Below are positions 3,341 through 63,636 of a stretch of 64,000 bases of DNA, one piece after another. This stretch comes from Patescibacteria group bacterium. GTDB taxonomy: Bacteria > Patescibacteriota > Microgenomatia > UBA1400 > PJMF01. The notes under the pieces are model-generated. The model was not told the origin of the DNA. It saw nothing but the letters and a program-made list of their open reading frames with translations, and did not search any database. Numbering within the stretch: the first letter of the stretch is position 1; each line of letters begins with the position of its first letter. Where the stretch lies: the NCBI GenBank assembly GCA_016861205.1, contig BOKX01000001.1, positions 895,835 to 959,834 on the forward strand. Reading direction: 5' to 3'. A program made the translations under genes and the position numbers.

Positions 3341-3377
3341 TGCTTCCTTGTTTGCAAGTCTTTAGTTAGGACAATCT

Positions 3378-4086: not shown

Positions 4087-4199
4087 GTTCCAGCGTGTTT
4101 TTTTTCAAAGTACAGGCAGTGCTCTGGCGGGCTCGACAGCCCTAACATGCTGACACGGAACCAGAAGGACGTAAGTTAACTACTGGGGTTGATACCGGC

Positions 4200-20480: not shown

Positions 20481-23440
<2,960 letters not shown>

Positions 23441-23540
23441 TCAAGACTTGTTTGCTGCAAAAGTAACAAGTTTGACTTTTTCTTCACTGTTTTAGGAGCA
23501 GCTGCTCGGAATTCTTTCCGAGATCAGGTACTCAACTAAA

Positions 23541-23674
23541 GCGTTTGGTGCTGGTCTCTAGAGCGAGGTGGAACCAACTCTTCCCTTCCCGAACAGAGTC
23601 TTGAAACGCCTCAGCGGTGACAATAATTCCCGGGCAACTGGGTGTGAAGATAGCTCGAGGCCGGCACCAAGCGC
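23541..23674 (+). rRNA. rrf: 5S ribosomal RNA
   Basis: 5' GCGTTTGGTGCTGG pairs with 3' CCGGCACCAAGCGC. Internal CCCTTCCCGAACAGAG and AAACGCCTCAGCGGTGACAATAAT match conserved 5S loop C and helix IV regions. A T7 run (terminator) follows immediately. Confidence 0.75.
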
Positions 23675-47950: not shown

Positions 47951-47951
47951 T

Positions 47952-49394: not shown

Positions 49395-50132
49395 TTAAGG
49401 AATCAGGTGGCCTTCGCAAGTGTTGCCGTTTGCATCAGAGTTAGTGCCATCAGGGCAAGTGGTATTTGACCAAATGGGGTTCTCACGATTGGCTGTATTG
49501 ACATTGAGAGCCCCCGTTAAATTGGCGTTCGTAAAGTTGGTTTCAATTAAGGCGGTGTTGAAAAGGTTGGTGCCCTGTAAGTTTGCGCCGGTGAAGTTGA
49601 CTTGCTGAAGTCCCGAGTTTCTGAAACTGGCGCCAGCCACGTTTGCTCCGGTGAAGTTTGAGCCACTAAGGCCGCTATTTTTTAGTCTGGCCTCTGTCAA
49701 GTTGGCCCCGGAAAAGTTGACATTGTCCATATTATTGCTATTGATAACAGCTTTGATCAGACTCGCTCCACTAAAATCAGCATTCCTCAAGTCACTAGTT
49801 GCAACGTGGAGTGAGTCCAGGTTTACTCCAACAAATGAGCTAACATTGGCACGGCTTAACAAATCTTCCACCTCACAAGCAACGCAAATGAGAGTGCTCG
49901 TGCCAGAACTGGGGAAGTCTTTTGGCCAGCTCAAGAGAGTTTCTTGGTGCCGGCACTCTGTATCTGGTGGCACAATCCGAATGTTGGGTGCGTTAAAAAT
50001 GGTGGGGCGAACACAGGCGTAGATCCGATTTGACTCAACACCCTGAGCGTGGACAACAGCGACGGCAGCTGGTAACAAAAGCCCGCCTAAAAAAGCGGCG
50101 CTGGTGAGGAAGAGAGTTTTGGGAGTGAACAT
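49395..50132 (-). CDS. Secreted pentapeptide-repeat protein
   Basis: Signal peptide MFTPKTLFLTSAAFLGGLLLPAAVAVVHAQG. About 20 consecutive A(D/N)LxG-type pentapeptide units (NADFSGASLIKAVINSNNMDNVNFSGANLTEARLKNSGLSGSNFTGANVAGASF...). Confidence 0.8.
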   Translation of the reverse strand: MFTPKTLFLTSAAFLGGLLLPAAVAVVHAQGVESNRIYACVRPTIFNAPNIRIVPPDTECRHQETLLSWPKDFPSSGTSTLICVACEVEDLLSRANVSSFVGVNLDSLHVATSDLRNADFSGASLIKAVINSNNMDNVNFSGANLTEARLKNSGLSGSNFTGANVAGASFRNSGLQQVNFTGANLQGTNLFNTALIETNFTNANLTGALNVNTANRENPIWSNTTCPDGTNSDANGNTCEGHLIP

Positions 50133-50202: not shown

Positions 50203-53200
50203 TTAGTTCAGTAGCCACCAGGTGAACTGGACGTCTCGGTCGGGCAGGGCGGTGTCAAAGCCGACCACGAACTGACCTTCTTTTTCAGAGGTGCTTGGGT
50301 TTTCAGGAGTGATTGACTTGACGTACAGGACTTGGTTGTTGGTTGAGCCGAGTGGGGTGACCTGGACGACTGTTTCACTGGTGATTTGCTCAGACTTGAT
50401 GACCATTTCGGTCTGGCCTTGTTTGACGACAGCCTTACCTGAGGTCTTGGTGGTTTCGGCTTGGTTCTCGTTACCACTCAAGTCTTGGGCGCCGACCCCG
50501 ATACCGCCAGCGAAGTTGGCGCGGCCGTCGGCTGAGATGGTGGCGACTGGGGTGCCAAGCTCGTCGACGATCTCGAAGCGTGACTCACGGACTTCGCCAG
50601 ACTCGGTGGCTACGCCAGCGACTTTGACTTGCAATGGGTTGGTGAAGTCAGTGGGTTGGATCAGATCAGTTAGGAGGCTGTCCTCAACAGTCACGGTACC
50701 AGCCACGGTTAGGTCACCCGTCACGATGACTTGGCCGTTTGACTTCAAGCTAAGTAAGCCAGCCATCATCGACAGCGTACCTTGGCCATGAGGTTGAATT
50801 TCAAACACGGTCTCGGCTGGGTTAGCAGAGTCTAAGTAGCTCAAGACACCATCGCTCAGCTGGGTACCTTCACCGATCAGCAGTTGGTTGGCAATGCCCA
50901 CTGAGTCACCGAAGTAGGCAGAGCCGTTGACCTCGAAGTAGCGGTTGATGAAGGCAGCATCGGCACCGATTGAGACGTCAGTGCTGGCTAAGTTGAGGTC
51001 GCTGAGTGACTTGTTCATGATGGCAGAGCCAGTGGCCGAGTAGCCAGCTTGGTCGATGACTGAGAATAGGGAGGCGACTGAGGCAGCGGTGGAAGCGTTA
51101 TCAGGTTCGCCGAGCAGTTGAGCCAACAGAGACGGTTTCTGAATGGCGGTGGCCACTTTGTCGTCAAAGCCGTCAATGTTGTCGGCGTACAAAGTGCCAG
51201 AGATGGTGGCGGTGATCAACTCAGCGGTGTCCGCCTTGATCTGTTCGAACTCAGCCACTTTGCCCTCAAGTGCAGCGATACGAGCTGAGGTGGCGTCGAG
51301 TTGACCGGAGATAGTAGCGGTACCACTGATACTGGCATTGTCACTCAAGAGTGAGCCTAGGCGAGAGGTGCCGTTGACAGTCAAGTCGCCCGCCAGCTGG
51401 GTGTTGCCTTGGTCGTCGATGCTGGCCACTGGTTGGTTGTTTTGGTTAGTGACCTGGAAGCGGTCATTGTTGTCACTCAGTTTGACGTTAACAGTGTCGC
51501 CAACTGGAGTGATGAGGTCAGTTTTAACCTCTGGAGTTTGGATGCGGACCTCAGCCAAGAGCTGGCGAGTGCGAATCACGCCGGCTTTTAGGTTGGCCAC
51601 GGCTAGTTCAGCAAAAGCATCAACTTTCTCGAGCAGATTGCCGTTGTAGCTGGCATTGTAGGTGGCGGTGGCCACAGGAGCGGAGTCATTGCCAGCGATA
51701 GTTACGTCACCGCTCGAAGTAATCCGGATGCTTGGGTCGAAGTAGGAGGTGTTAACAAACACCATGACTTTTCCGGTGCCGGCCTGTGGTTCGGGCAGAG
51801 GTTGACGCTCTGATGAACCAGCTAACCGATCCTGCTCAACTTTAAGTGTTCCAGCTGAGAGTTTATGGGTGCCATCATAAGCTTCAAGGGCATAGCCGAT
51901 AATTCGGCCGGCCTTGGTAGCTTTCATGGCCACACCTGGTTGACTGGCAGAGGTTAATGGATCGCCAACGGCAATTGGGCCATTTTCTAGACTGACCTTG
52001 ACTGGCACGCGTCCAACCAAGGCCACTGGTTGAGTATCAACCACTTCGCCGCCCTCAGTATCGCCCCATCCCGCTACTAATCCTGGGTCAGTGGAAATGA
52101 CGCCTACTACCATGCTGTCATAACTGACGCCTGAGCTCTTGCTTAGGGTTTTTCCAGGTTCAGCAACAGGTGCTGTGGTAATGGCTACCAAGTCACCCTC
52201 TTCAGCGTTGCCCAAAACTTTGTACATTTCGGCTACGTCAGCACCGCCACCGTTCCAGGCTCCATCAGCGTAAGCCTGACCATTGGTTTCAAGACGATAT
52301 TCATTGTCTGGGGTGCCGTCTTCGTCAGTTCGCAGTAGCATAAAGTACTCGTTCGCGGTGCCCACATCGTTGGTTGACCAAGCTGACATAACCTCAAATG
52401 TGCTAAGCAAGTGCGATCCAACACTGGTGCCCGTCGCCCCGAACGGTGTGCCACCTTCACTGGTTACCCACAATCGTGTTCCACCACCTTGAGTGGTGCC
52501 GATAGCCACCGAGCCATTGTTCCTGACTGACATGACGTGGCGGCCACTAACGCCTGCCCGGAAGATATCGCCACTACCATTGTTTTCAACTCGCAAGCCG
52601 ACACCACTGGTTGAGCCTGAGAAGGTGGCAATTGGTAGTGATGAGGAGTAACCACGAACATCAACAGCTCCCAGCAGATTAGCATTTGGGGTGTTAACAC
52701 CCATGCCACCACTGTTGGTGAGGACAAAGCGGGTGGTACCTGAGGCTGAGGCAGTAAACAGGTCACCATTAGACTCGGTTTGGTTAATGGTCAAGACAGC
52801 CTTGCCGAAGGCAGGGGTGTCGCCACCAGTTTGGAGGTGGAGTAAACCTAAGTATGATCGACTGTCACCGAGGATAGTCCGATTTGTGACCCCATCAATA
52901 TGGAGAGCGTAGGAACCGTTGGAGCCGGGGTCACTCAGGTAGTAGTTATTGAGGATAAACTCATCAGCGCCACTATCAGCTGAAATTTGCCATAAGTTAC
53001 CTAGCTCAGTTGCTCCATCATTGTGACTAAAGATGATGTTTGAGGCACCACCGTCAACTGAACTCATCTGGAACTCAGCGTACGGATCGCCACCAGCGAA
53101 GGATCGGAACATCATGGTGGCTCGAGTAGAAGCTCTCTCAAAGTGGAGTCCGTAGGCAGGGGCGGTAGTGCCGATACCCAGGTCACCGTTACCGAGCAAA

Positions 53201-56200
53201 GTCAGATCGGCCGCGTTGTCATTGTTGCGAACTTGGAAGACAGTTTCGGCGGCGGCCAAATCAACTACCCCGGTGCCCGATCGGCGGGCGCCAGTTAGCA
53301 TAATCATCGGTACAGTGTCTGTGGGGTTGGTAGAGCCAGAGTAGCCGCGCAGTTCGAGTGCCTGTGCGCCAGAGACTTGGTCAGCAAACCCAGTTAACAT
53401 GGCTCCACCGTTGGTGCCAGAGATTGCCCCGATGTGGAAGATGGTGTTCGTGGTGGTCACGCCAGTGATGCCGTGCGCCACATCAGCATCACCCATGGCA
53501 AAGGTGGTGTCACCCGAAGTGGTGACCAAGTGCAAGTTGTAGGTCGGGGCAGTAGTGTTGATGCCAACTCGACCGACGCCGTTAAGCGGGTTGAGATAGA
53601 TGTTGCCGGTAGTGGCGCCGCCAATGGTTATAGGTCGGCTACTTGTCGATCGAATGGTACCCCCAGATCCACCTAGAGTGATGTCACCAGAAATAGAAGC
53701 TGTTGGAAAACCACCACTGACGTTATTTAGGAAGGCAAAGTTAGCACTGTCAGTGGCTAAGCCACCAACTAGGAGGTCGAGCGTGTTGTTGGTGGGACTC
53801 AGTGCGCCCTGATACAGTCGCCAGTAGGCACCCAGCGAAGTTTCTGGGTTGGCCCAGGTGAGGGTGCCTGAACCGTTCGTCTGGAGAATGTAGCCAGCTG
53901 TTTGTGATGTTGGCCAGGTGTAGGCTAAGTTGCCAAAGACCGTCGTGCCATCTACTTCCAAGTCACCTTGAATGTAGAGATCATTGTCAGTGCTCATACT
54001 GCCGGAGGCACCAGCCGTTGAATCAGCCATCAGGTTGTAGTTCACCGTACTGCCATTACCGCCGATGTTCAAAATCGCATCAGCACCGAAGATGGCATCG
54101 CCAGCAATGTTAAGAGCGGTGCCAGTAGCAGCTGGGTCGAGATAGAAGGCTTCGTTAGCCATATCAGAAAAGCGCTGAGCGATGGCGTACCCATTAGTGT
54201 CAACTCGGAAGCGTGTCACGCCAGAAACTGAGGCTGACAGAATGTCGCCTGAGTTGAGCTGGTCGATGACCAGGGCCGCATTGGAGCTGTAGTTGCCAAC
54301 CACATGGAGATCTGCGTGGGGAGCGGTGGTGCCGATCCCGACGTTGCCATCTGAGTTAATATGAAGTCGGTCAATCCCACTAGTCATGAGGGCAACATCT
54401 GTCCATGAACCATGAGCTGCAAAACGGGCAGTGGTTCCCGAGAAATCAACTGTTTGTGCACCGCCGAGTCGGAAATCGGTGGAAGCGTTGACATATCCAT
54501 TGCCAGTAATGTTGCCGACGACTTGCAGCGCCTGGCTTGGACTCGTCGTCCCAATCCCGACGTTGCCACTGGGGAGAATGGTCATCGCGGTCGTCCCATC
54601 AGACACAAAACTCAGATTACCGGTGTTGGCGTCACCGAGTGTCAGAGTGCGCTGGTTGGTGGTGGCAATCACCCCAGCTGAGTTGAGCGTAATATTGCCC
54701 GAGATACTGGCAGTAGGTGTACCTGAGTTGACATTGATGAAGGCAAAGTCAGCGCTGCTCGAGGCGCTCCCGCCGATGAGCAGATCAGTGGTGTCGTTAG
54801 CGGGAGAGAAGGCACCATCAATGATTCGCCAGTAGTTAACAGCTTGAGAGGTGGAAGCGATGCCCACCCAGGTACTGCCATTATAGTAGTAGGGAATGTT
54901 GTCACCCGTGTTGTAGTACATCGAGCCGGCACCAAGTGCAGTCGGGTTTGAGCCAAAGTTGCCGATGCGTGTCTGGCCTGCAATCGAGACGTTTTGACTA
55001 AAGTTAAAGTAATCACTGGTCGTGTTGTAGCTCATGATGCCCTCATCACCGCTTGAGCCGATGTGGAGGCTACTGGGGCCAAGGTACAGATCTTGCCAGC
55101 GTAAGGTGTCGCTGCCCAAGTCGCGAGTGTCATTCCCATCGGGCAAGAGGTTGCCCACAATTTCCACGGTGCCAGCGGTCAGGCTAAGGGTGCCATCGAC
55201 ATCGTTGTCGATAGTTTCGCCGTTTTGGAATGAGATGTCGGTAGTGACGTCAGCGTCGGCGATGTTGATAGCGTTGACGATGCCACCGGAGATGTTACCG
55301 CTGTTGGTAATGTATATGGCATTTTGCACGACCGTTGAGCCTGTGCCTGAGGTATCTTGGTTGTCGAGTCGGAGAAGCGCAGTGACGTTGTTGTCGGTGG
55401 TGTTAGAAGTACCCATGTTTCTGACTTGAAGAGCGTACTCGGTGTTTCCAGAAGTTGATGGATTGTTGGTTAATCGGACATCAACCCCGGCCAGGTCCGT
55501 CGTGCCGCTACTGTTGCTGTTGGTAACGTTGAAAATGTTGGCAGTTATGCCGCCAGTCCCAGCTGGGTTATAGGTGGATGAAAAGTACGAGGCAATTCCG
55601 GTGGTCATAGTGTTGGAAATTACAGAGTAGCCAATTCCAGCTGTACCTGTGTACTCCTGTTGCCAGGGGTAACTTCCTTGACTCAGCAAGAATTGATTAT
55701 CAAGCGTGGGACTGTCAACGAACTCGGTGAAATCAATACAGTCGGTACAGCTGAAGTCGCTGGCGGTGACGGTAGCATTGGTAAAGTTGACCACAGTGCC
55801 ATCAGCTTCGAGGTTGCCCTCGATGTACAGGTCGTCGTCACTGTCCATACTGGCCGAAGCGCCGGCAGTTGAGTCGCCGATCACGTTGTAAGCCACGTCT
55901 GAGCCTGAGCCACCGACGTTGAAGGTGTTGGTATCGGTAAAGATCAGGTCGCCGCCACCGATATTGAGGGTCAGGTCACCAGTGGTGGTTTGGAGGGTGC
56001 TGGCTTGATAGAGAACTAGATTGCCGGCGTTACTTAAGCTCAGTCGTCGTGTGCCAGAAGCAGAAGCAGCCAGGATATCGTCAGAGCCAGTTTGATTGAA
56101 CATGGCTAGGGCGTTGCCAGCGGCATTTGCCGTGCCAGTGACGACAAATCTGCCCAGAGGTGCAGTGGTACCAAAACCAACGTTACCACCTCTAGTCATA

Positions 56201-59200
56201 GCCATGTAGTTGCCGGCGGTGGTGCCAGTATTCAAAAATGTACCAAACGTGACGTAGGCGTTACCGCCCCCAGAGTTGTTACCGCCTTGAATGCCAGCAG
56301 ACAACATATTCCCTTGACCGTCGCCGCCGCCAGCCCTGATTAAGAATGGACTACTTGGACCGCCACTGTTGGCCCAGATGCCGCCATTGACGGTCAAAGT
56401 GTCATTGATATTGCCGGAGGTAGTGTTGATACCGACCCGACCACCAGTTGGGTTGAGGACCAGTGTCCGGTTGAGGCTGGTCGTAATTACACCATCTCCA
56501 GTCAGTGACAAGGCGTTGCCCGCCGTGGTGCCAGACATACTGGCGGTGACGTTGCCAGAGCCGTTGATGTTGGTCACGGCAAACCGGGCGCTGGCAGTGG
56601 ACTGGCCCCCGATTAACAGATCCACAGTCGAGTTAGCCGGGTAGAGGGCGCCGTTGCCTTGGTACCAGAACACATTGGCTAGAGTGGCCACTGTGGTCCA
56701 GCTTAGGACACCTGAGCCATCGGTGCTCAACACCTGGCCAGTGCTACCAGCGGTGTCTGGTAAGGTCAGTGTGACATCTGACCCGACCGTCGCGGGAGCC
56801 TGCAGTGCCACGTAGTTGGTGGAGTCGGAGTCAGCTAGGCGGAGGTCGCTCTGAGCTGGCAAGAAAACGTTGTCGTTTAGGTCAATCTGAGTTGAGTTGG
56901 AGCTCAAGCGCAAGTTACCACTCACATCTTCAATGACGTGGGCGACGCTGTCGATAACTGAAATAATTCCGCTGCTGTTGATCTGGAACTGTGAAGTGCT
57001 ACCCACTGAGAAAAGTGAGTCTGGAGTGGTATCTCCACCCACGCCCACGTTGCCAGCACCAGTGATGGTCATGCGGTTGTTAGCGCCGTTGGTGTAGAAG
57101 TTGATAGCCGCGTTCTGGCGGTTGGCAAAACCGATTTCTGAACCGTTAGAAGTTCCAAAGTCAGCAGTAGGTGTTCCAGAAGTATCAGTAAACTGAATGG
57201 CGCCACCAGCGCTACCTGCGATTACAAGTGACGTATAGTCACTGCCACCGGTAGAACGCAGCCACAGCCGACTCACTTGACTTGCACCACCCCAACCCGT
57301 TGCAACGTTGGTTGGAGCAGTGGTGCCGATACCGACGTTATTCAAGTTGCGGTCAAAGGTCATGATGTTACTCTCAGAACCACCAGTTACCCCTTGAACG
57401 TACAAGCGGCCAGATGAAGCATCTTCTAAGTTGAAAGAGTAGCCAGCATCACTATTTTGCTGTTTTAGGTACAAAAGCTGTGTGTTGCTGCTGACGCCAT
57501 CAGCATCCACAATGGTCAGCACTCGGTTAGAAGAGGTAGTTCCAATGCCGATGTTGCCATCTGGACGCATGGTCATCAAATGGGTGCCATCTGAGTAGAA
57601 GTTAATGTTTCCGGTGTTGCTATCACCAATATTGAGTGGTTGCTGATTAGTAGTAGCAATGACACCGGCAGAGTTAAGGGTGAGATTACCAGAGATACTG
57701 GCGGTGGGAGTGCCACTATTCAGATTGATAAAGGCAATATCTGCGCTGGCACTGGACTGACCACCAAAGAGGACATCGACAGTTGAGTTGGCTGGGTAGA
57801 GAGCACCATTGCCTTGGTACCAGAAGATGCTGGATAGCGTGGCAGCGCTGGTCCAGCTCAGGACACCTGATCCATCAGTGGACAACACTTGGCCACTGTC
57901 GCCATCAGTATCTGGCAAGGTGAGGGTGTAGTTGGTGCCGATGGTGGCGGGGGCTTGAATCGCGGCGTAGTTGGAAGAGTCGCTATCGCCAAAGCGCATG
58001 TTACCTTGAGTGTTGATGAAGATGTTTCCACCAGCAATCTGCAATCGTTCGTTAATAGTAGTAGTACCAATACCGATGTTCTGCGAACTGTTAATGCGCA
58101 TGGCGGTGGTGCCGTTGGTGGCAAAGCCCATGGCGTCGATGTCGTGCATGTAGCTGATGACACCCATGTCTTCGCTATCTTGGTCTGAAAAGCTTAGGAT
58201 TTGGTGAGCGGTGTTGCCACTGACCCACTTGAGGCGATTGGTGCTAAAGGCCTCGAGTACCAACATGTCGTTGCCATCCAGTGAGTAGCCGCGGGTGCTG
58301 CTGCTGCGGTAGAGGTGGGCAAAGCCCTCTGGGGCGGTGGTCCCGACCGCGATCCGGCCACCTGAGCCGTTGTTGGGCATCATGATGATGTTACCGGTGG
58401 TGGAGCCGCCGAGGGTGAGAGAGCGATTGTTGGTGGACTGGATGGCGCCACTGGTGTGGTTGAGCGTCAGGCTACCGGCGATCGAAGCGGTGGGGGTGCC
58501 TGAGTTGTTATTCAAGAAAGCAAAGTTGGCACTAGCCGAAGCCTGACCACCGAAGAAGACGTCCACGGTTGAGTTCAGTGGGAAGAGCGAACCATTGGTT
58601 TGGTTCCAGTAGTTGGTGCCGGCGGCTACCCACGAGAGGACGCCAGAGCCGTCGGTAGACAGAACTTGCCCACTGTCACCGTCATTGTCAGGCAACGTGA
58701 GGGTGTAGTTGGTTCCGATCGTGGCCGGAGCCTGGATAGCAGCGTAGTTGGTAGAGTCGGAGTCGGCTAGGCGGAGGTCGCCCTGGGCGTTGATCTGGAA
58801 GTTACCGGTAGCAAGTTCGAGGGCGTTGGTAGGAGTAATAGTGCCGATTCCGAGATAGCCATTTTCATCAAAGGCGCTTAAACCAGTGCCACTCGAGTTT
58901 TGCAGTTCAAGTAAGTTATTAGTCTGTGACGTAGCAGCTCTGATTTTTACCGCAATTTCATTGGCTGTTTGGTTAAAAACTGCAAAAAGATGATCTGTTT
59001 CAGTACTGATGGTACCGACATTGACGGAGTCTCGTGCGTTACCGTAAATCGTGAAGAGATTGTCGGTTGATCCGCCATCAGCACGGAGAATGGTGAAAGT
59101 GTCAGAAGCTCCGATGTTGTCTGGGTTCAGCCAGATTCCTGGTGCTCCAGCACCACCTAATGCAACCAAGCGTGCGTTAACACCACTGGTTCTGTTTCCA

Positions 59201-62200
59201 TATAGGCTGGTTGTTTGATTACTAATTGACAGTTTATCGGTCACACCCGCATCACCACCTGGACTCGTCCGAATCACAAATGATTCTCCGTTCAAAATAT
59301 TGATTGTTGGGTCAGTTGTCCCTCGGAAGGAAAGTGTGCCCGAGAGTGATGCTGAGCCAGCTACGTCAAGTGTGGCCGTGGCATTGGTACTATCAAATCC
59401 TGGCCCGATGCCCCAGTTACCAGCCGAACTCACAGCACCAATCACACTGTTGTTCAGAGCAAAGAAAATCTGACGGCCACTAGCAGCATTGAGGTACGTG
59501 CTCCCGACATTCGATTGCAGCAGGGCGTAATTACCAGTGGCTGAGTGATCTAGTGCCTGGTTGCCAAAGTAGGCATAGTCAGTGTTGGCTGGCCAGGCAC
59601 CGGTTTCGGCAGCTCCAATTCGACCGGTGGTAGTGATGCTGCCAACGGCAAAGTCAAAGTCAGGGCTGGAGGTGCCGATACCCACTCGGCCACCGGTGGC
59701 ATTCAGGGTGAGTGTTCGGTTAAGGCTGGTTTGAATGGCGCCGTCGCCATTGAGTGACAGAGCATACCCGGCGGTGGTCCCAGACATAGTGGCAGTGACT
59801 GCGCCAGAGTTGACGTTAGTCACCGCGAACCGGGCGCTGGCGGTAGATTGACCACCGATGAGCAGATCCAGAGTTGAGTTCACCGGGTAGAGCGCACCAT
59901 TACCAGTGGACCACAAGCTGTTACCGATGGTAGTGCCGTAGATTTCATTAATGGCATCTACGAGGCCTTGGGGCAAACCGGCATCCAGAGCGGTGTCAGC
60001 TACAGTCAGAGCGATGTTGCCGGTGCGGGTGTCGCTCAGATACAGCTCTCCGTTGCTGCTCAAAACCAAGTTGCCAGAGGAGTTAGCTAAGGCGTGGGCC
60101 ACGCCACCAATGGCGGCGATGTTTCCAGAGGAGTTAACCTGGAACAGATCGCCATTGCCGACGGTCAGCATGGCTGCAGGTGAAGTGTCTCCGATACCGA
60201 AGTTGTTGTTGAAGAGTGTAGCCAGTGTGGCATTTCCAACTTGGAAACCAATTGAGCTGGCAGCGGCTGTATCAAGCACGAGTGAACCAGAACTGAGCAA
60301 CTCAACAGAACCGGAACCTGTATTCTGGATAGTCAGTTCACCAGCTGAAGTGTCAAAGTAGGCGTTGCCCACGACGTGGAGTGTTTGCCCAGGCACGGTG
60401 GTACCCAAACCCAACAGACCAGCGTTGGTCAAGACCATTCGGTTTGTACCAGAGGCAGAGGCGGCGATGATGTTGCCAGAATTGGTCTGGTCAACCACCA
60501 GGGCAGCGTTGGAACCGTAGTTACCGACTACATGGAGATCTGCGATGGGTGAAGTGGTACCGATGCCAAGATTTCCGTTACTATCGAGAGTCATGAAGGC
60601 AGTACTTGATTGTCGGAAGACAAGCCTTCCGCCACCGTATGAGCTAGCATTACCAGTTGAGTACAAATTAAAACTAGTTCCGCCGGCGCCAGTATTTGAA
60701 AGGCCAACCATCGGTAGAATAGATGAAATCTCCAGCTGATAAGCTGGAGTCGTGCTGCCAATTCCGACATTACCTGTTGGCAAAAGTGACATGACCTCAG
60801 TTGCAGGGAAACCTTGGTTGTATCGATTAGCATAGCTGTATGAGCCAATAGCTAATCGTGAAGCCGTATCGGTGAAACCTAGTACAGCTCCGCTGGTGCC
60901 TGTCCAAAGATTCACAAACCTACTGGCGTCGGTTCTTTCAAAAACGAAACCTGGTGTGCCAGTCCCGGCAGTGACTCTGACTGGGAAGGCAGGAGAGCCG
61001 GAAGGTGCTGCTGATGGACCAACAACATCAAAAAGAGTGGCAGGAATCGAAGTCCCAATCCCCACATTCCCATTCTGGGTAATCACAAACCGGTTTAAGC
61101 CTGAGCTGGAGGCGGTGAAGATGTCACCCACACCTGAGTTATCGGCTACCAAGGTGGCAAAGGCGGTAGCACCAGAGACAGAAGCAACCGGCAGCGTCCC
61201 AGACATGGCCCTCAGGTCTAAGGTGCCTCTGGGACTAGTTACGCCATTTTCACCAATTCCTACCAATCCAGCTCCAGTAATGGTTACTCGTGAGAGCGCG
61301 TTGGTAGCCAAAGTTAGGGGAGTGTTTTCTCGGTTATAAACCAAGGCACCACCATTGTATCCGAGAGTCAGCCCATCGTTTTCGCTATGTCCAGTGGCGC
61401 TTGAAGTGATACTGATGTACGCCAAAGCACTATTTTGTGCAGAAACTTGAAGTTTCGAGCGAGGACTAGTTGTGCCAATTCCCACATTGCCATCGTTTGG
61501 ATTAAGGAGCAACGAGCGACTTAAGCTTGTGGCGATAGTACCATCACCAGTCAGGTATAAGCTGTTCCCAGCTGTTGAACCCGAAAAACTAGCCGTTGGG
61601 GTGCCGCTATTTACATTCAAGAACTTGAAGATGGCACTGGCACTCGACTGGCCGCCAATCAAGACATCCATGGTTGAGTTCTTGGGATAAATGACACCGT
61701 CACTGGCTGACCAGTGCACGCTGCCAGCACCAGCCAAAGCTGGATCTACCCAGCTTAAGGTGCCACTGCCATTTGTAGACAAAATATACCCAGAGGCTTG
61801 GGAGCCGGGCCAAGTGTAGGTGATGCCATTGAAAGCGGTGGTCCCAGTGGCAAAGTCAAAGTTGCCGCTAGATGAGATGGTCAGCCGATTGTTGCTGCCG
61901 CCGGTTCGGAAGATTAAGGAGCCAGTGGCGTTGGTAGCAGAAACGTAGTTCTCAGCGTTTCGTGAGAAGGCCAGGGTATTGGCTTGGAGCGTGGAGTTGT
62001 AAGCAGCTGCCTGAGTGACAGTCAGAGCCCCGTCACTGCCAAAGTAGGCCAGGTTGGTACCACTGCTGTTGTTGATGTCAGCGATGTGGGCAGTGCCACT
62101 CGGGCCACCCTGAACAGTCAGTGGCACGCCGCCGGCGTAGGTGGCTGAGATGGTGGCACCTGGAGAATAGACGTAATCTCGAGAGATCACCCCACCGATA

Positions 62201-63636
62201 CCGTCGGCATCTAAAACTATGTCGCCATTGCTACCACTAGCAGTTTGGAAGAGGAGGCTACGACCTTCCAGAGTAAAAGTCCCAGAAAGAGACCGAATCT
62301 CCGGGTTAACTTCGCCTAAAACGACACTCCCACCACCGTCCATAAACAGGATGGTGTTCACTGTGGCTGCCCCGGTGGCAGAGATGGGGTACCCCTGCAA
62401 AGTTTCGGCGTTCAGAGCGTAAGCTACCGTGCGAATTGGTTGGCGAGGGGTCAAGGTCTCGCTGCCGACTCGGACTTCTAGGTAGGTGCTGGCGTTTTCC
62501 GAAAAGACAAACTCGTTGATTTCAGCGCCACAGGTACCGTCACCCAGATTAGTGTTGAAAATGCCATCCTGATCGGGAGTCACACTACAGCTGCCTTGCC
62601 AGAGAAGTGGGCCGGCATCACCTGGGGTGTCAGTGTAGGCGCCGTTACTGGGGTGGTTGTAGATACTGAACACCATCGAGGTGCTGCTCGTGATGGGGTT
62701 CTGGTTGGTATCAGTCAGACGACCTTGGAAGGACAATATCCGATTCGGCTCGACAGGTGTGCTGGGATAAGCGAGTGGAGTGTTGGCTGTCTTGAAGAAC
62801 TGTTGGTATCCAAACACACCTAATCCCAAGATAAATAACACCAAGATAGCCAAGTTAAGGTAGGTCACCCAACCTTGACTGGCTTTGAAGACGGAATTAA
62901 GGCGTTCAATGCCTTGTCTCCAATTTTGTCGAGTTGAGACTTTTTTGACTCGAGGTCGAGGCGGAATAATTTCTACTTGAGGTTTTTTTGGTTCCAGAGC
63001 TGGCTGGCTGACTTTTGGCTCAGCTGGTTTGATTGGAGCTGGTTCTGGATTCGGCTTGATGACAGGCATCTCAGCAACTGCTTGTACAGCCTGGACAGTT
63101 ACTGGGACCTCGAGCTGGAGTAACCCGTGTTCCTCACACCACTGCCAGAAATGCTGCAAACTCGAGGTTTTACGCTTGATACTAGAGGGTTGTAAGCCGT
63201 TTTGATCTTGGAATCGCTCAAAAGCGGCGATTTGGTTTTTGGTAAGGCCAACGCTGACCACTGAGGTCCGACAAAAAGTAAAGAATTGGCTGATATCATT
63301 GCGGTAATTTCGAACAGTGGAGTTTGAGCACTTGTTAAGCTTGAGTGCTAAAACAAACTTTGGTAAAGCGACTTCGATCTGGGAAGCTGGAAACTGGTTC
63401 AGAAACTGAGTAGCCAGTTGGTAGTGAGTGTCCGTTGGCTGTCGGTCGGCCGGTAGCTGACCGATGAAGGTGGCCCAGCCCTCAGCAGACCAGCTGCTGG
63501 GGTCAGCTTGCCAGCTACAAAACTCTGTCAAGAGGTGAGCTAGCTGACTGGCTTCTGCCGGCAGCACACCAGAGCCTTGAAAGAATGTCACGGCGGCGGC
63601 AAGTGGGGAAATCGTGCGCGGAGGTTGGGCAAGCAT
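50203..63636 (-). CDS. Giant surface protein (4477 aa): cytoplasmic tyrosine-recombinase-like N-terminal SAM/core-binding domain (no catalytic domain), Pro-rich linker, single TM helix, ~4200-aa repetitive extracellular region with phage-tail-fibre-like repeats
   Basis: Intact 13.4-kb ORF. N-terminal aa ~85-175, LKLNKCSNSTVRNYRNDISQFF...QPSSIKRKTSSLQHFWQWCEEHGLL, parallels XerD LEKNLAENTLNAYRRDLSMM...KATSSARLLSAVRRLFQYLYREKF. TM helix WVTYLNLAILVLFILGLGVFGY at aa 256-277. Repeated modules ...SDSTNYAAIQAPATIGTNYTLTLPDNDGDSGQVLSTDGSGVLSW... (x3) and ...YTWPGSQASGYILSTNGSGTLSW.... Highly Gly/Ser/Thr/Asn-rich beta-repeat composition. Confidence 0.85.
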   Translation of the reverse strand: MLAQPPRTISPLAAAVTFFQGSGVLPAEASQLAHLLTEFCSWQADPSSWSAEGWATFIGQLPADRQPTDTHYQLATQFLNQFPASQIEVALPKFVLALKLNKCSNSTVRNYRNDISQFFTFCRTSVVSVGLTKNQIAAFERFQDQNGLQPSSIKRKTSSLQHFWQWCEEHGLLQLEVPVTVQAVQAVAEMPVIKPNPEPAPIKPAEPKVSQPALEPKKPQVEIIPPRPRVKKVSTRQNWRQGIERLNSVFKASQGWVTYLNLAILVLFILGLGVFGYQQFFKTANTPLAYPSTPVEPNRILSFQGRLTDTNQNPITSSTSMVFSIYNHPSNGAYTDTPGDAGPLLWQGSCSVTPDQDGIFNTNLGDGTCGAEINEFVFSENASTYLEVRVGSETLTPRQPIRTVAYALNAETLQGYPISATGAATVNTILFMDGGGSVVLGEVNPEIRSLSGTFTLEGRSLLFQTASGSNGDIVLDADGIGGVISRDYVYSPGATISATYAGGVPLTVQGGPSGTAHIADINNSSGTNLAYFGSDGALTVTQAAAYNSTLQANTLAFSRNAENYVSATNATGSLIFRTGGSNNRLTISSSGNFDFATGTTAFNGITYTWPGSQASGYILSTNGSGTLSWVDPALAGAGSVHWSASDGVIYPKNSTMDVLIGGQSSASAIFKFLNVNSGTPTASFSGSTAGNSLYLTGDGTIATSLSRSLLLNPNDGNVGIGTTSPRSKLQVSAQNSALAYISITSSATGHSENDGLTLGYNGGALVYNRENTPLTLATNALSRVTITGAGLVGIGENGVTSPRGTLDLRAMSGTLPVASVSGATAFATLVADNSGVGDIFTASSSGLNRFVITQNGNVGIGTSIPATLFDVVGPSAAPSGSPAFPVRVTAGTGTPGFVFERTDASRFVNLWTGTSGAVLGFTDTASRLAIGSYSYANRYNQGFPATEVMSLLPTGNVGIGSTTPAYQLEISSILPMVGLSNTGAGGTSFNLYSTGNASSYGGGRLVFRQSSTAFMTLDSNGNLGIGTTSPIADLHVVGNYGSNAALVVDQTNSGNIIAASASGTNRMVLTNAGLLGLGTTVPGQTLHVVGNAYFDTSAGELTIQNTGSGSVELLSSGSLVLDTAAASSIGFQVGNATLATLFNNNFGIGDTSPAAMLTVGNGDLFQVNSSGNIAAIGGVAHALANSSGNLVLSSNGELYLSDTRTGNIALTVADTALDAGLPQGLVDAINEIYGTTIGNSLWSTGNGALYPVNSTLDLLIGGQSTASARFAVTNVNSGAVTATMSGTTAGYALSLNGDGAIQTSLNRTLTLNATGGRVGIGTSSPDFDFAVGSITTTGRIGAAETGAWPANTDYAYFGNQALDHSATGNYALLQSNVGSTYLNAASGRQIFFALNNSVIGAVSSAGNWGIGPGFDSTNATATLDVAGSASLSGTLSFRGTTDPTINILNGESFVIRTSPGGDAGVTDKLSISNQTTSLYGNRTSGVNARLVALGGAGAPGIWLNPDNIGASDTFTILRADGGSTDNLFTIYGNARDSVNVGTISTETDHLFAVFNQTANEIAVKIRAATSQTNNLLELQNSSGTGLSAFDENGYLGIGTITPTNALELATGNFQINAQGDLRLADSDSTNYAAIQAPATIGTNYTLTLPDNDGDSGQVLSTDGSGVLSWVAAGTNYWNQTNGSLFPLNSTVDVFFGGQASASANFAFLNNNSGTPTASIAGSLTLNHTSGAIQSTNNRSLTLGGSTTGNIIMMPNNGSGGRIAVGTTAPEGFAHLYRSSSTRGYSLDGNDMLVLEAFSTNRLKWVSGNTAHQILSFSDQDSEDMGVISYMHDIDAMGFATNGTTAMRINSSQNIGIGTTTINERLQIAGGNIFINTQGNMRFGDSDSSNYAAIQAPATIGTNYTLTLPDTDGDSGQVLSTDGSGVLSWTSAATLSSIFWYQGNGALYPANSTVDVLFGGQSSASADIAFINLNSGTPTASISGNLTLNSAGVIATTNQQPLNIGDSNTGNINFYSDGTHLMTMRPDGNIGIGTTSSNRVLTIVDADGVSSNTQLLYLKQQNSDAGYSFNLEDASSGRLYVQGVTGGSESNIMTFDRNLNNVGIGTTAPTNVATGWGGASQVSRLWLRSTGGSDYTSLVIAGSAGGAIQFTDTSGTPTADFGTSNGSEIGFANRQNAAINFYTNGANNRMTITGAGNVGVGGDTTPDSLFSVGSTSQFQINSSGIISVIDSVAHVIEDVSGNLRLSSNSTQIDLNDNVFLPAQSDLRLADSDSTNYVALQAPATVGSDVTLTLPDTAGSTGQVLSTDGSGVLSWTTVATLANVFWYQGNGALYPANSTVDLLIGGQSTASARFAVTNINGSGNVTASMSGTTAGNALSLTGDGVITTSLNRTLVLNPTGGRVGINTTSGNINDTLTVNGGIWANSGGPSSPFLIRAGGGDGQGNMLSAGIQGGNNSGGGNAYVTFGTFLNTGTTAGNYMAMTRGGNVGFGTTAPLGRFVVTGTANAAGNALAMFNQTGSDDILAASASGTRRLSLSNAGNLVLYQASTLQTTTGDLTLNIGGGDLIFTDTNTFNVGGSGSDVAYNVIGDSTAGASASMDSDDDLYIEGNLEADGTVVNFTNATVTASDFSCTDCIDFTEFVDSPTLDNQFLLSQGSYPWQQEYTGTAGIGYSVISNTMTTGIASYFSSTYNPAGTGGITANIFNVTNSNSSGTTDLAGVDVRLTNNPSTSGNTEYALQVRNMGTSNTTDNNVTALLRLDNQDTSGTGSTVVQNAIYITNSGNISGGIVNAINIADADVTTDISFQNGETIDNDVDGTLSLTAGTVEIVGNLLPDGNDTRDLGSDTLRWQDLYLGPSSLHIGSSGDEGIMSYNTTSDYFNFSQNVSIAGQTRIGNFGSNPTALGAGSMYYNTGDNIPYYYNGSTWVGIASTSQAVNYWRIIDGAFSPANDTTDLLIGGSASSSADFAFINVNSGTPTASISGNITLNSAGVIATTNQRTLTLGDANTGNLSFVSDGTTAMTILPSGNVGIGTTSPSQALQVVGNITGNGYVNASTDFRLGGAQTVDFSGTTARFAAHGSWTDVALMTSGIDRLHINSDGNVGIGTTAPHADLHVVGNYSSNAALVIDQLNSGDILSASVSGVTRFRVDTNGYAIAQRFSDMANEAFYLDPAATGTALNIAGDAIFGADAILNIGGNGSTVNYNLMADSTAGASGSMSTDNDLYIQGDLEVDGTTVFGNLAYTWPTSQTAGYILQTNGSGTLTWANPETSLGAYWRLYQGALSPTNNTLDLLVGGLATDSANFAFLNNVSGGFPTASISGDITLGGSGGTIRSTSSRPITIGGATTGNIYLNPLNGVGRVGINTTAPTYNLHLVTTSGDTTFAMGDADVAHGITGVTTTNTIFHIGAISGTNGGAMLTGFADQVSGAQALELRGYSGSTNPTDTVPMIMLTGARRSGTGVVDLAAAETVFQVRNNDNAADLTLLGNGDLGIGTTAPAYGLHFERASTRATMMFRSFAGGDPYAEFQMSSVDGGASNIIFSHNDGATELGNLWQISADSGADEFILNNYYLSDPGSNGSYALHIDGVTNRTILGDSRSYLGLLHLQTGGDTPAFGKAVLTINQTESNGDLFTASASGTTRFVLTNSGGMGVNTPNANLLGAVDVRGYSSSLPIATFSGSTSGVGLRVENNGSGDIFRAGVSGRHVMSVRNNGSVAIGTTQGGGTRLWVTSEGGTPFGATGTSVGSHLLSTFEVMSAWSTNDVGTANEYFMLLRTDEDGTPDNEYRLETNGQAYADGAWNGGGADVAEMYKVLGNAEEGDLVAITTAPVAEPGKTLSKSSGVSYDSMVVGVISTDPGLVAGWGDTEGGEVVDTQPVALVGRVPVKVSLENGPIAVGDPLTSASQPGVAMKATKAGRIIGYALEAYDGTHKLSAGTLKVEQDRLAGSSERQPLPEPQAGTGKVMVFVNTSYFDPSIRITSSGDVTIAGNDSAPVATATYNASYNGNLLEKVDAFAELAVANLKAGVIRTRQLLAEVRIQTPEVKTDLITPVGDTVNVKLSDNNDRFQVTNQNNQPVASIDDQGNTQLAGDLTVNGTSRLGSLLSDNASISGTATISGQLDATSARIAALEGKVAEFEQIKADTAELITATISGTLYADNIDGFDDKVATAIQKPSLLAQLLGEPDNASTAASVASLFSVIDQAGYSATGSAIMNKSLSDLNLASTDVSIGADAAFINRYFEVNGSAYFGDSVGIANQLLIGEGTQLSDGVLSYLDSANPAETVFEIQPHGQGTLSMMAGLLSLKSNGQVIVTGDLTVAGTVTVEDSLLTDLIQPTDFTNPLQVKVAGVATESGEVRESRFEIVDELGTPVATISADGRANFAGGIGVGAQDLSGNENQAETTKTSGKAVVKQGQTEMVIKSEQITSETVVQVTPLGSTNNQVLYVKSITPENPSTSEKEGQFVVGFDTALPDRDVQFTWWLLN
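53600..61900. repeat. Family of diverged intragenic tandem-like DNA repeats (units of ~0.3-0.8 kb, ~70-85% identical) inside the giant gene
   Basis: Clearly related blocks by eye at ~56560-56880, ~57700-58020 and ~58490-58800 (e.g. ...gacacctga.ccatc.gtg...cttggcca.tg...ggtgtagttgg...ggagtcggagtc.gctaggcggaggtcgc...). More diverged copies lie near 53730, 54700, 59830 and 61620. Confidence 0.7.

What the first reader, a model, noticed from the sequence alone, without database searches (positions are those of the whole stretch)
50203..62800. Extracellular body of the giant protein: phage tail-fibre-like repeat modules and an unrecognised C-terminal domain
The extracellular region is built from recurring modules with the signature PxxxGxxGQVLSTDGSGVLSW / YTWPxSQxxGYILxTNGSGTLSW. 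From memory this resembles motifs in phage tail-fibre and beta-helical receptor-binding proteins. Many ...ALYPxNSTVDxLxGGQSxASAxFAFxNxNSGTPTASISG... units are also present. The last ~450 aa change character: GGADVAEMYKVLGNAEEGDLVAITTAPVAEPG..., a segment TATISGQLDATSARIAALEGKVAEFEQIKADTAELITATISGTLYADNIDGFD that is likely a trimeric coiled-coil or neck, and a final beta-rich domain. This organisation is the one expected of a trimeric fibre: adhesin body, then a neck, then a C-terminal chaperone or receptor-binding knob. In an episymbiotic CPR bacterium this protein would be a prime host-attachment candidate.
Basis: partly seen in the sequence, partly recalled or inferred. Interest (0 to 1): 0.7.

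Follow-up and report, generated by a model that had tools for sequence, protein, structure and literature searches.

The report
Giant self-cleaving phage-like surface fibre
A 4,477-residue membrane-anchored protein of a tiny CPR bacterium is built from phage tail-fibre parts and carries a predicted self-cleaving assembly domain and a conserved end module, which makes it a testable candidate for how these bacteria touch their hosts.

Summary
One ORF (window 50203-63636, minus strand, 4,477 aa) has seven recurring junction modules, three copies of a 60-residue unit and 14 'GIGTTxP' loops.

The units are 55-75% identical to units in proteins that carry genuine phage tail-fibre domains. The loops match solved Bdellovibrio MAT trimeric fibres.

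The 'change of character' at GGA|DVAE (aa 3797, 681 residues from the end, not about 450) is a divergent phi29-gp12-type (Peptidase_G2) autoproteolytic chaperone domain. D3800 and E3803 align with the gp12 D692/E695 dyad. The AF2 model also matches gp12.

A conserved module of about 500 aa follows: a short amphipathic helix, a beta-rich stretch and a terminal beta-sandwich that resembles phage tailspike ends. It occurs at the C-terminus of at least 648 protein clusters, many 2,000-7,700 aa long, and in no deposited phage genome.

In relatives, the slot before this module holds either the G2-like block (41) or Peptidase_S74 (28). The roughly 400 aa before the cleavage site are the most lineage-specific part.

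Best reading: a membrane-anchored trimeric fibre whose conserved C-terminal cap drives assembly and is then cut off, exposing a variable tip.

Trimer state, cleavage and host binding are inferred. This is a new variant of a known kind.

The parts
62800..62868 (-). Single transmembrane anchor (aa ~257-279). Eight Arg/Lys lie just before it, so the N-terminus is inside and the remaining ~4,200 aa are outside.
   Evidence: It is the only segment above the hydropathy threshold in the whole protein. Sequence.
63127..63357 (-). Cytoplasmic N-terminal domain resembling the integrase SAM-like N-terminal domain (aa 94-170). It is context only and lies outside the finding's range.
   Evidence: Pfam PF02899 at 3e-06, 27.8 bits against a cut-off of 22.3. 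The N-terminal region is shared by 53 of 60 homologs of 1,900 aa or more.
52285..62799 (-). Extracellular fibre body (aa 280-3784). It is rich in G/T/S/A/N and is made of beta-helix-type segments with 14 'VGIGTTxPxxxL' capping-loop motifs, interrupted by seven junction modules.
   Evidence: PHROG tail-fibre families 9942 and 18345. phmmer matches to MAT fibres 8OND at 3.5e-6 and 8OJN at 1.8e-3. Motif count 14 against 0.25 expected. No Pfam hit.
61492..61914 (-). Junction module 1 (aa ~575-715): YTWPxSQxxGYILSTNGSGTLSW, then the IYPKNSTMDVLIGGQSSASA...NSGTPTASFSG unit, then a GIGT loop.
59632..60054 (-). Junction module 2 (aa ~1195-1335). The first half is degenerate. The LYPVNSTLDLLIGGQSTASA...NSGAVTATMSG unit is intact.
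58351..58809 (-). Junction module 3 with copy 1 of the 60-aa phage-type unit (aa 1610-1669, ending GQVLSTDGSGVLSW), followed by the LFPLNSTVD...NSGTPTASIAG unit.
   Evidence: The unit is 60-75% identical to units in proteins with phage tail-fibre Pfam domains.
57574..58029 (-). Junction module 4 with copy 2 of the 60-aa unit (aa 1870-1928).
56419..56874 (-). Junction module 5 with copy 3 of the 60-aa unit (aa 2255-2313).
   Evidence: DNA repeat families D1-D3.
54577..54999 (-). Junction module 6 (aa ~2880-3020).
53596..54018 (-). Junction module 7 (aa ~3207-3347), with the second YTWPxSQxxGYILQTNGSGTLTW.
52240..53439 (-). Lineage-specific stretch just before the cleavage site (aa ~3400-3799). 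It is the predicted mature distal tip and the candidate specificity determinant.
   Evidence: Only 1-15 of 45 giant homologs have any detectable match here, against about 40 of 45 for the N- and C-terminal regions. The function is inferred by analogy with T5 pb1 and Bd3182 (PMC10769870).
51724..52284 (-). Peptidase_G2-like autoproteolytic / intramolecular-chaperone beta domain (aa 3785-3971).
   Evidence: Family profile A1 against PDB: phi29 gp12 6QZ9 at 9.8e-4 and 3GQH at 6.8e-3. The AF2 model has pLDDT 80-97 here. Foldseek matches 3SUC at 1.1e-3 and 3GQH at 1.6e-3 with TMt 0.51. Homologs P0011 and P0096 pass Pfam PF11962, but the window protein itself does not.
52228..52239 (-). Predicted catalytic and scissile motif D3800-V-A-E3803, with cleavage predicted between A3799 and D3800.
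   Evidence: The motif aligns residue for residue with D692-F-A-E695 of gp12. The cleaved gp12 fragment 3GQH starts at DFAEYF. D-[VLIFY]-A-E is present in 170 of 178 family blocks.
50206..51723 (-). Conserved C-terminal module (aa 3972-4477), which always lies at the extreme C-terminus of its relatives.
   Evidence: 648 cluster representatives at E<=1e-3, of which 109 are at E<=1e-30, many 2,000-7,697 aa long. No hit in Pfam, PDB sequences or phage genomes.
51214..51285 (-). Short amphipathic helix (aa 4118-4141, SARIAALEGKVAEFEQIKADTAEL). It is a candidate trimeric coiled-coil neck and is followed by the invariant ATISGTLYAxNI motif.
   Evidence: AF2 predicts a helix at residues 334-357 with low pLDDT. 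Hydrophobic positions 4120, 4123, 4127, 4130, 4133 and 4140/4141 are conserved across 24-28 sequences. The oligomeric state was not tested.
50206..50484 (-). Terminal beta-sandwich domain (aa 4385-4477), ending in the conserved FxWW[IL][VL]N.

Best explanation
The region encodes the extracellular part of a giant fibre anchored in the membrane by its N-terminus. The fibre is assembled from phage tail-fibre building blocks.

Proposed mechanism:
1. The chain is exported with its N-terminus in the cytoplasm, so the C-terminus emerges last.
2. The conserved C-terminal ~680 aa trimerise. They comprise the G2-like beta domain, a short coiled-coil-like helix, a beta-rich segment and a terminal beta-sandwich.
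3. This trimer sets the register for the highly repetitive shaft of about 3,500 residues, which folds into an intertwined triple beta-helix.
4. Once the trimer is formed, the Asp3800/Glu3803 dyad cuts the chain between A3799 and D3800.
5. The conserved cap of about 70 kDa per chain is released. This unmasks a lineage-specific distal tip (aa ~3400-3799) at the end of a fibre roughly 0.1-0.15 um long.
6. That tip is the candidate contact site for the host or partner cell.

Shown here: the repeat anatomy, the homology of the units to phage and MAT fibre elements, the G2-type motif and fold, the interchangeability with S74 in relatives, and the conservation pattern.

Inferred: trimerisation, cleavage and release, fibre length, and any host-binding role.
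For: Body:
- PHROG tail-fibre families match at 6.8e-20 and 7.3e-16.
- The sequence matches solved trimeric MAT fibres 8OND and 8OJN through the GIGTTxPxxxLHV loops, and there are 14 such loops.
- The 60-aa unit recurs in 1,481 or more proteins, including ones with Phage_T7_tail, Mtd_N+Phage_fiber_2, T4_gp9_10_N, Collar and Peptidase_S74 domains.
- The unit also occurs in cyanophage fibre gp28 and in four deposited aquatic phages.

Autoprotease:
- The D-x-A-E motif is nearly invariant.
- The family profile hits gp12 with exact alignment of the catalytic dyad.
- The AF2 model matches gp12 structures 3SUC and 3GQH.
- Two homologs pass Pfam Peptidase_G2.

Exchangeable cassette: among 76 long homologs that carry the C-terminal module, 41 have the G2-like block, 28 have Peptidase_S74, 2 have both and 5 have neither, always directly before the module. 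Two unrelated self-cleaving chaperone domains in the same slot argue that cleavage at this junction is the selected function.

Conservation pattern:
- The N-terminal base and the C-terminal module are conserved in about 40 of 45 giant homologs.
- The 400 aa before the cut are matched in only 1-15 of 45.

Cellular, not viral:
- The N-terminal domain and TM anchor are shared by 53 of 60 homologs.
- The neighbours are pilin-like genes, Obg, a TPR protein and rRNA.
- The C-terminal module is absent from 50,697 phage genomes.
Against: - Pfam Peptidase_G2 does not hit the window protein itself, even at E<=10.
- Only the N-terminal part of that model (about positions 24-105 of 228) is matched in the homologs, and the PDB profile E-values are modest (about 1e-3).
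- Cleavage was not demonstrated. In phi29 gp12, release of the chaperone is ATP-dependent, and ATP is unlikely to be available outside the cell.
- The fragment predicted to be discarded is large, and its last ~240 aa look like the working end of phage tailspikes. It could therefore be a functional tip and not a disposable cap.
- The AF2 monomer model is poor between aa ~3970 and 4240, and no multimer prediction was possible.
- Nothing here shows binding to any host.
Confidence: 0.6

Rival explanations
1. The C-terminal module is the permanent, functional distal tip (adhesin or glycan-binding/degrading end). The G2-like block is then only a structural domain, or the two fragments stay associated after cleavage.
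For: - There are 34 viral structure matches at E<=1e-3.
- The module is long and strongly conserved, which implies a function of its own.
Against: - The catalytic D/E is kept in 170 of 178 blocks.
- The slot is filled alternatively by S74, often with its SDxxxK motif (36 of 53 blocks within the window searched). That is hard to explain without cleavage.
- A host-specific tip would be expected to vary, yet this module is the most conserved extracellular part.
Confidence: 0.22
2. The gene is a phage or prophage tail fibre (or a tailocin fibre) lying in the chromosome, not a cellular surface structure.
For: - PHROG tail-fibre hits.
- Units shared with genuine phage fibres.
- The G2-like block occurs in a virion protein of PA5oct-like jumbo phages.
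Against: - There is no virion-attachment N-terminus. Instead there is a 255-aa cytoplasmic domain plus one TM helix, and this arrangement is conserved in 53 of 60 giant homologs.
- The neighbours are pilin-like, Obg, TPR, pentapeptide-repeat and rRNA genes, with no phage structural genes.
- The C-terminal module is absent from 50,697 phage genomes and gave no relative in the IMG/VR scan.
- The size, 4,477 aa, argues against it.
Confidence: 0.04
3. It is a non-trimeric repetitive surface protein, such as a monomeric beta-helix adhesin, an S-layer-associated protein or a trimeric autotransporter-type adhesin. On this view the phage-like motifs are only compositional resemblance.
For: - No Pfam family covers the body.
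- One source names a unit-bearing protein 'trimeric autotransporter adhesin' (P0291).
- The composition is low in complexity, rich in G/T/S/A/N.
Against: - The matches are specific, not compositional: 55-75% identity over 60 aa, significant HMM hits, and motif counts far above shuffles.
- There is no YadA-type anchor and no Ig, cadherin or S-layer homology domain.
- G2 and S74 domains are known only as trimer-dependent chaperones of trimeric fibres (PMC10769870, PMC8326128).
Confidence: 0.08

Closest known systems
Bdellovibrio bacteriovorus MAT (mosaic adhesive trimer) fibres, e.g. Bd2133 and Bd3182 (PMC10769870)
   Same: - Both are cellular, not viral, surface fibres built from phage-like intertwined beta-helix segments with the same capping-loop motif. 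There are direct sequence hits to 8OND and 8OJN.
- Both are mosaic, with one conserved end and one diversified end.
- Both have a C-terminal self-cleaving chaperone in many members.
- Both are proposed to contact other bacteria.
   Different: - MATs are about 1,000 aa long, with a signal peptide and a conserved beta-rich N-terminal domain. This protein is 4,477 aa long, with a cytoplasmic SAM-like domain and a TM anchor.
- MATs end at S74 or at a tip domain. Here a G2-type block (S74 in relatives) is followed by a further conserved module of about 500 aa.
- The seven junction modules and the 60-aa unit were not described for MATs.
Bacillus phage phi29 pre-neck appendage (tailspike) gp12 and its C-terminal autochaperone (Peptidase_G2, PF11962; PDB 3GQH, 3SUC, 6QZ9)
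   Same: - The D-x-A-E motif lies at the junction between the trimeric beta-helical body and the C-terminal domain and aligns exactly.
- The motif is followed by the hxGVxSxxPG segment.
- The fold of the first ~130 aa is similar.
   Different: - The Pfam model does not detect the window protein.
- Only the first half of the gp12 chaperone is recognisable. Its helical, ATP-dependent part is replaced by a 500-aa module.
- The setting is extracellular and cellular, whereas gp12 assembles in the cytoplasm as a virion part.
Peptidase_S74 intramolecular chaperone domains of endosialidase, T5 pb1 and MyRF (PF13884)
   Same: They have the same position and presumed role. In 28 of 76 long relatives an S74 domain sits exactly where this protein has the G2-like block.
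   Different: - The window protein has no S74 domain.
- S74 uses a Ser/Lys dyad and has a different fold.
- Canonical phage S74 domains are the very C-terminus, whereas here about 500 aa follow.
Phage tail fibres and tailspikes carrying the 60-aa '...NYAAIQAPATxxxNYTLTLPxxDGxxGQVLxTDGSGxLSW' unit (e.g. cyanophage P-SCSP1u gp28, Pelagibacter phage HTVC026P, Synechococcus phages S-CRES1/2)
   Same: The unit is shared at 41-75% identity.
   Different: - Those proteins are 230-1,100 aa long, have virion-attachment N-termini and are encoded in phage genomes.
- The unit has no Pfam model.
- No solved structure was identified for it. The one PDB entry whose sequence contains it (8I4M) is described as resolving the fibre N-terminus (PMC10575957).

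Membership tests
Peptidase_G2 (PF11962; phi29 gp12-type IMC autoproteolytic domain) | Match to the Pfam model at or above its gathering score | tested here: not met
   The window protein or its segments give no hit even at E<=10. Homologs P0011 (36.5 bits) and P0096 (30.7 bits) exceed the 25-bit cut-off, and P0002 scores 14.7 bits.
Peptidase_G2 (PF11962; phi29 gp12-type IMC autoproteolytic domain) | An Asp/Glu pair at the scissile site, equivalent to gp12 D692/E695. These are taken as the catalytic residues from prior knowledge; no paper was retrieved here. | tested here: met
   The family profile aligns D-L-A-E onto DFAE of 6QZ9, 3GQH and 3SUC. Chain 3GQH starts at that Asp, and 3SUC carries DFAQ at the same position. 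In the window protein the residues are D3800 and E3803. The motif is present in 170 of 178 blocks.
Peptidase_G2 (PF11962; phi29 gp12-type IMC autoproteolytic domain) | Fold similarity to the gp12 C-terminal fragment | tested here: met
   Foldseek matches 3SUC at E 1.1e-3 (prob 1.0) and 3GQH at E 1.6e-3 (TMt 0.51). The confidently modelled part has pLDDT 80-97. Phage cement proteins score similarly, so the fold is not unique to G2.
Peptidase_G2 (PF11962; phi29 gp12-type IMC autoproteolytic domain) | The full-length chaperone, including the C-terminal helical part of gp12 | tested here: not met
   Only profile positions ~24-105 of 228 are matched in homologs. The profile-to-PDB alignments stop at about gp12 residue 743. 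What follows is an unrelated 500-aa module.
Peptidase_G2 (PF11962; phi29 gp12-type IMC autoproteolytic domain) | Autocatalytic cleavage and release after trimer formation | not testable with these tools
   This needs expression of the fragment with D3800/E3803 mutants, or proteomics.
Peptidase_S74 (PF13884) | Match to the model and an SDxxxK Ser/Lys motif | tested here: not met
   There is no hit in the window protein. S74 is present in relatives at the equivalent position.
MAT superfamily (Bdellovibrio mosaic adhesive trimers) | Trimeric beta-helix segments with the capping-loop motif | tested here: met
   phmmer matches 8OND at 3.5e-6 and 8OJN at 1.8e-3 through these loops. There are 14 motif copies against 0.25 expected. 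The trimeric state itself is inferred.
MAT superfamily (Bdellovibrio mosaic adhesive trimers) | A signal peptide followed by the conserved ~130-aa beta-rich N-terminal domain | tested here: not met
   The N-terminus is a 255-aa cytoplasmic region with a SAM-like domain, followed by one TM helix. The window protein was not compared with the MAT N-terminal domain itself.
MAT superfamily (Bdellovibrio mosaic adhesive trimers) | Surface display and binding to another cell's envelope | not testable with these tools
   This needs microscopy and binding assays.
Phage tail fibre proteins (PHROGs 9942, 18345) | Significant match to the family profiles | tested here: met
   6.8e-20 and 7.3e-16 on aa 600-1250. 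Further hits occur on aa 1640-1940 and 2900-3270.
Phage tail fibre proteins (PHROGs 9942, 18345) | Encoded among phage tail genes, with a virion-attachment N-terminus | tested here: not met
   The neighbours are cellular genes. The N-terminus is a membrane anchor.
Trimeric autotransporter adhesins | A C-terminal YadA-type beta-barrel membrane anchor | tested here: not met
   There is no Pfam or NCBIfam hit. The C-terminus models as a soluble beta-sandwich.

The most novel reading that the evidence does not exclude
This protein would represent a CPR-wide class of self-processing host-contact fibres. The fibre is anchored in the membrane and linked to a cytoplasmic DNA-binding-like domain. Its variable receptor-binding tip stays masked until one of two interchangeable autoproteases (G2-type or S74) releases a conserved ~70 kDa-per-chain tailspike-like cap. 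The released trimeric cap may itself act on the partner cell.
Probability: 0.3. Interest if true: 0.8.

Novelty: new variant of a known kind. Interest (0 to 1): 0.62.

Why it matters
How ultrasmall CPR/Patescibacteria recognise and hold on to their hosts is largely open. A 2024 review of the field names type IV pili and predicted surface adhesins (PMC11665869).

This analysis defines a very widespread protein family that the scans and source names seen here leave without a functional name:
- at least 648 clusters carry the C-terminal module;
- at least 585 genome loci carry the G2-like block;
- the loci are mostly in Patescibacteria MAGs.

The family has a clear, testable anatomy: a conserved base, a mosaic shaft, a variable tip and a self-cleaving cap. 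This gives experimenters exact residues to mutate (D3800, E3803). It also gives a predicted neo-C-terminus and neo-N-terminus to look for in proteomes, and a defined variable region to test for host specificity.

It also extends phage-type intramolecular chaperones to a new architecture, in which a large conserved module follows the protease. And it shows G2 and S74 domains acting as exchangeable cassettes.

Tried and rejected
- Pfam and NCBIfam on the whole protein and on nine segments found only the N-terminal SAM-like domain. My first segment boundary cut through the G2-like block, so I re-scanned aa 3700-4010 and 3780-3960. That also gave no hit.
- phmmer of the C-terminal 638 aa and of aa 3700-4010 against PDB sequences gave nothing meaningful. 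Only the family profile reached gp12.
- BLAST of the protein against itself returned only the trivial hit. It was replaced by a chunked search.
- The AF2 model of aa 3785-4477 as a monomer had mean pLDDT 65 and an uninformative middle. The coiled coil therefore remains a sequence-pattern inference.
- Foldseek does not report query ranges. I modelled the last 238 aa separately to assign the tailspike-like matches.
The single-sequence scan found no relative, but its sensitivity is low.
- Literature searches found no description of this family in CPR.
- The phi29 virion paper does not mention gp12 cleavage. The catalytic roles of D692 and E695 therefore rest on prior knowledge, plus the start of PDB chain 3GQH at that Asp and the DFAQ sequence of 3SUC.
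- The prophage, TAA and Ig/cadherin-type adhesin readings were considered and rejected (see rivals).
- Organism names such as 'uncultured Gammaproteobacteria' were not trusted.
Full report
**1. Observation**

The window holds one ORF of 4,477 codons on the minus strand, at 50203-63636. The finding's range covers aa 280-4477. That is everything after the single hydrophobic segment, at aa ~252-279.

Eight Arg/Lys immediately precede that segment. The N-terminal 255 aa, which contain an integrase SAM-like domain, should therefore be cytoplasmic, and the remaining ~4,200 aa should be outside.

All quoted motifs exist:
- GQVLSTDGSGVLSW occurs three times.
- The YTWP...GSGTLxW variant occurs twice.
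- LYPxNSTxDxLxGG units occur five to seven times.
- NSGTPTASISG units occur six times.

A chunked self-comparison and an alignment resolve seven homologous junction modules at aa ~575, 1195, 1622, 1881, 2266, 2880 and 3207. The DNA copies are only 63-78% identical, so these are old duplications kept at the protein level.

Fourteen 'VGIGTTxPxxxL' motifs occur, against 0.25 expected in shuffles.

One correction is needed. GGADVAEMY lies at aa 3797, which is 681 residues from the end and not about 450.

**2. The body**

Pfam and NCBIfam see nothing in the body. Three other lines tie it to phage-type trimeric fibres.

- PHROG tail-fibre families 9942 and 18345 match at 6.8e-20 and 7.3e-16.
- The protein matches the sequences of solved Bdellovibrio MAT fibres (8OND Bd2133 at 3.5e-6, and 8OJN) through the GxxGIGTxxPxxxLHV loops. 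In those crystal structures the loops cap the edges of an intertwined trimeric beta-helix (PMC10769870).
- The 60-aa unit ending in GQVLSTDGSGVLSW is a distinct mobile element:
  - A search with aa 1590-1990 gave 1,481 proteins.
  - Most of those listed are 230-690 aa long and share only this unit, at 55-75% identity.
  - Among them are proteins with Phage_T7_tail, Mtd_N plus Phage_fiber_2, T4_gp9_10_N, Collar and Peptidase_S74 domains.
  - A profile of the unit hits the fibre gp28 of cyanophage P-SCSP1u (8I4M, 2.2e-6). The paper describes the fibre N-terminus as the resolved part, and this stretch lies far downstream of it (PMC10575957).
  - tblastn finds the unit in four deposited aquatic phages.

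Its refutation criterion, Ig-like or cadherin-like repeats, is not met.

**3. The start of the C-terminal region**

A homolog search with aa 3840-4477 found 228 proteins. About 130 of the local BLAST matches to the 120 listed proteins fall on one block, aa ~3840-3965.

Extending the alignment upstream showed a nearly invariant D-[VL]-A-E motif. It is present in 170 of 178 blocks.

The profile of this block hits phi29 pre-neck appendage protein gp12:
- 6QZ9 at 9.8e-4, 3GQH at 6.8e-3 and 3SUC at 0.033.
- D-L-A-E aligns on D692-F-A-E695, and the following hxGVISxxPG aligns on IGVISETAG.
- The 3GQH chain, the gp12 C-terminal fragment, starts exactly at that Asp.
- 3SUC, the 'pre-mature' form, carries DFAQ.

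From established knowledge of MEROPS family G2 (Xiang et al. 2009; no paper was retrieved here), this Asp/Glu pair performs the autocleavage that frees the gp12 autochaperone.

Two homologs pass the Pfam Peptidase_G2 threshold. The window protein does not.

An AF2 model of aa 3785-4477 is confident for aa ~3795-3925 (pLDDT 80-97). Foldseek returns 3SUC and 3GQH (E ~1e-3, prob 1.0) along with phage capsid cement proteins of similar fold.

I therefore file the block as a divergent, partial relative of Peptidase_G2. It has the catalytic motif and the first sub-domain. It is not a full member, because the helical half of the gp12 chaperone is absent.

**4. The C-terminal module**

A full HMMER scan with aa 3960-4477 found 648 cluster representatives, 109 of them at E<=1e-30. 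In every hit listed, the best-matching stretch runs to within a few residues of the C-terminus. Many of these proteins are 2,000-7,697 aa long.

One is a 93%-identical ortholog, P0121.

The module has no Pfam or PDB sequence match. It has no match in 50,697 phage genomes.

Its parts are:
- A conserved amphipathic helix, aa 4118-4141, followed by the invariant ATISGTLYAxNI.
- A beta-rich stretch.
- A terminal beta-sandwich, aa 4385-4477, modelled at pLDDT 93-97.

**5. Comparative evidence on mechanism**

- Among 76 homologs of 1,200 aa or more that carry the module, 41 have the G2-like block, 28 a Peptidase_S74 domain, 2 both and 5 neither. The block always lies directly before the module. Two unrelated self-cleaving, trimer-dependent chaperones in one slot argue that cutting the chain here is what selection maintains.
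- Across 45 giant homologs, the N-terminal base (aa 101-500) and aa 4101-4477 are matched in about 40. Windows aa 3401-3800, just before the cut, are matched in only 1-15. This is the pattern expected of a conserved assembly device next to a lineage-specific working tip. It parallels T5 pb1 and Bd3182, where the binding site abuts the S74 cleavage site (PMC10769870).
- The whole architecture is a family trait. The N-terminal domain plus TM anchor is present in 53 of 60 homologs of 1,900 aa or more.
- The G2-like block occurs in at least 585 loci of GTDB genomes, mostly Patescibacteria MAGs. In the 78 loci kept, it is followed by 129-885 aa (median 500) before the stop.

**6. Context**

The neighbours are cellular:
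- a secreted pentapeptide-repeat protein directly downstream;
- three pilin-like genes;
- a polytopic membrane protein with TPR repeats;
- Obg;
- 23S and 5S rRNA.

The exact protein is recorded on a contig of 1.15 Mb, which fits a CPR genome. A prophage origin is not supported.

**7. Mechanism, committed**

The protein is an N-terminally anchored trimeric fibre. The C-terminal ~680 aa emerge last, trimerise and set the register of a repetitive shaft. Without such a nucleator the shaft could pair out of register.

D3800/E3803 then cleave A3799|D3800. The conserved cap leaves and exposes the variable tip at aa ~3400-3799.

Scaling from Bd2133 (370 aa spanning about 145 A, PMC10769870), the shaft would reach about 0.1-0.15 um. 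This is an inference.

My confidence by step:
- The fibre and chaperone classification: about 0.8.
- Cleavage with release: about 0.55.
- A host-contact role: about 0.4.

The main rival is that the tailspike-like module is itself the working tip.

**8. Novelty**

The building blocks and the principle are known: phage fibres, MAT adhesins, and S74/G2 chaperones. The following appear to be new:
- the giant TM-anchored architecture with a cytoplasmic SAM-like domain;
- the conserved 500-aa module downstream of the protease;
- the G2/S74 cassette exchange;
- the breadth of the family in CPR.

I found no description of it. Rating: new variant of a known kind.

Noticed in passing
window 63127-63357 (-), aa 94-170 of the same protein: The cytoplasmic N-terminus carries a domain resembling the SAM-like (DNA-binding) N-terminal domain of tyrosine recombinases, with no catalytic domain after it. 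It is conserved, together with the TM anchor, in 53 of 60 giant homologs. What a DNA-binding-type domain does at the foot of a surface fibre is unexplained.
   Followed up: partly
window ~61237-61686 (aa 650-800) and ~54337-54636 (aa 3000-3100): Against the 93%-identical ortholog P0121, divergence is confined to a few patches. Identity is 37-74% at aa 601-800 and 58% at aa 3001-3100, and 84-87% at aa 2301-2400 and 3301-3400. Elsewhere it is mostly 97-100%. The two main patches lie just after junction modules, which suggests cassette replacement or gene conversion within the shaft.
   Followed up: partly
window 44519-46624 (-): A 701-aa protein with at least nine predicted TM helices and C-terminal TPR repeats. 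tblastn finds similar sequence a few kb downstream of the G2-block gene in 18 of 78 related genome loci. In most of them only the TPR part aligns, so the linkage may be spurious. It could be an envelope or glycosylation factor.
   Followed up: partly
window 49395-50132 (-): A 245-aa pentapeptide-repeat protein with an N-terminal hydrophobic segment lies 70 nt downstream of the giant gene on the same strand. A relative was found near only one other locus (L062).
   Followed up: partly
window 46680-48455 (+): Three consecutive genes with the N-terminal methylation (type IV pilin-like) motif lie close to the fibre gene.
   Followed up: no
Pseudomonas jumbo phages of the PA5oct group, e.g. NC_071039.1 45793-46086 (hits H1-H11): The G2-like block, starting at the DVAE motif, matches a protein of these phages at about 37.5% identity. 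Most records call it a hypothetical protein. NC_071039.1 calls it 'virion structural protein' and PP408249.1 calls it 'baseplate wedge subunit and tail pin'. This variant of the autocleavage domain is therefore not restricted to CPR.
   Followed up: no
window ~55738-55749 (aa 2630-2633, DFSCTDCIDF): The only Cys residues in the extracellular shaft beyond aa 369 form a CxxC pair. In a trimer this could be a metal or disulfide site on the axis.
   Followed up: no
window 14282-18622 (+) and 24024-28904 (-): Two further large ORFs of 1,446 aa and 1,626 aa. The first has no Pfam hit. The second has only a CarboxypepD_reg domain near its C-terminus. They may be additional surface proteins.
   Followed up: no
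window 20196-23666 (+): tRNA-Ala(TGC), 23S and 5S rRNA lie together, but no 16S rRNA was detected anywhere in the 64-kb window. The rRNA operon appears to be split.
   Followed up: no
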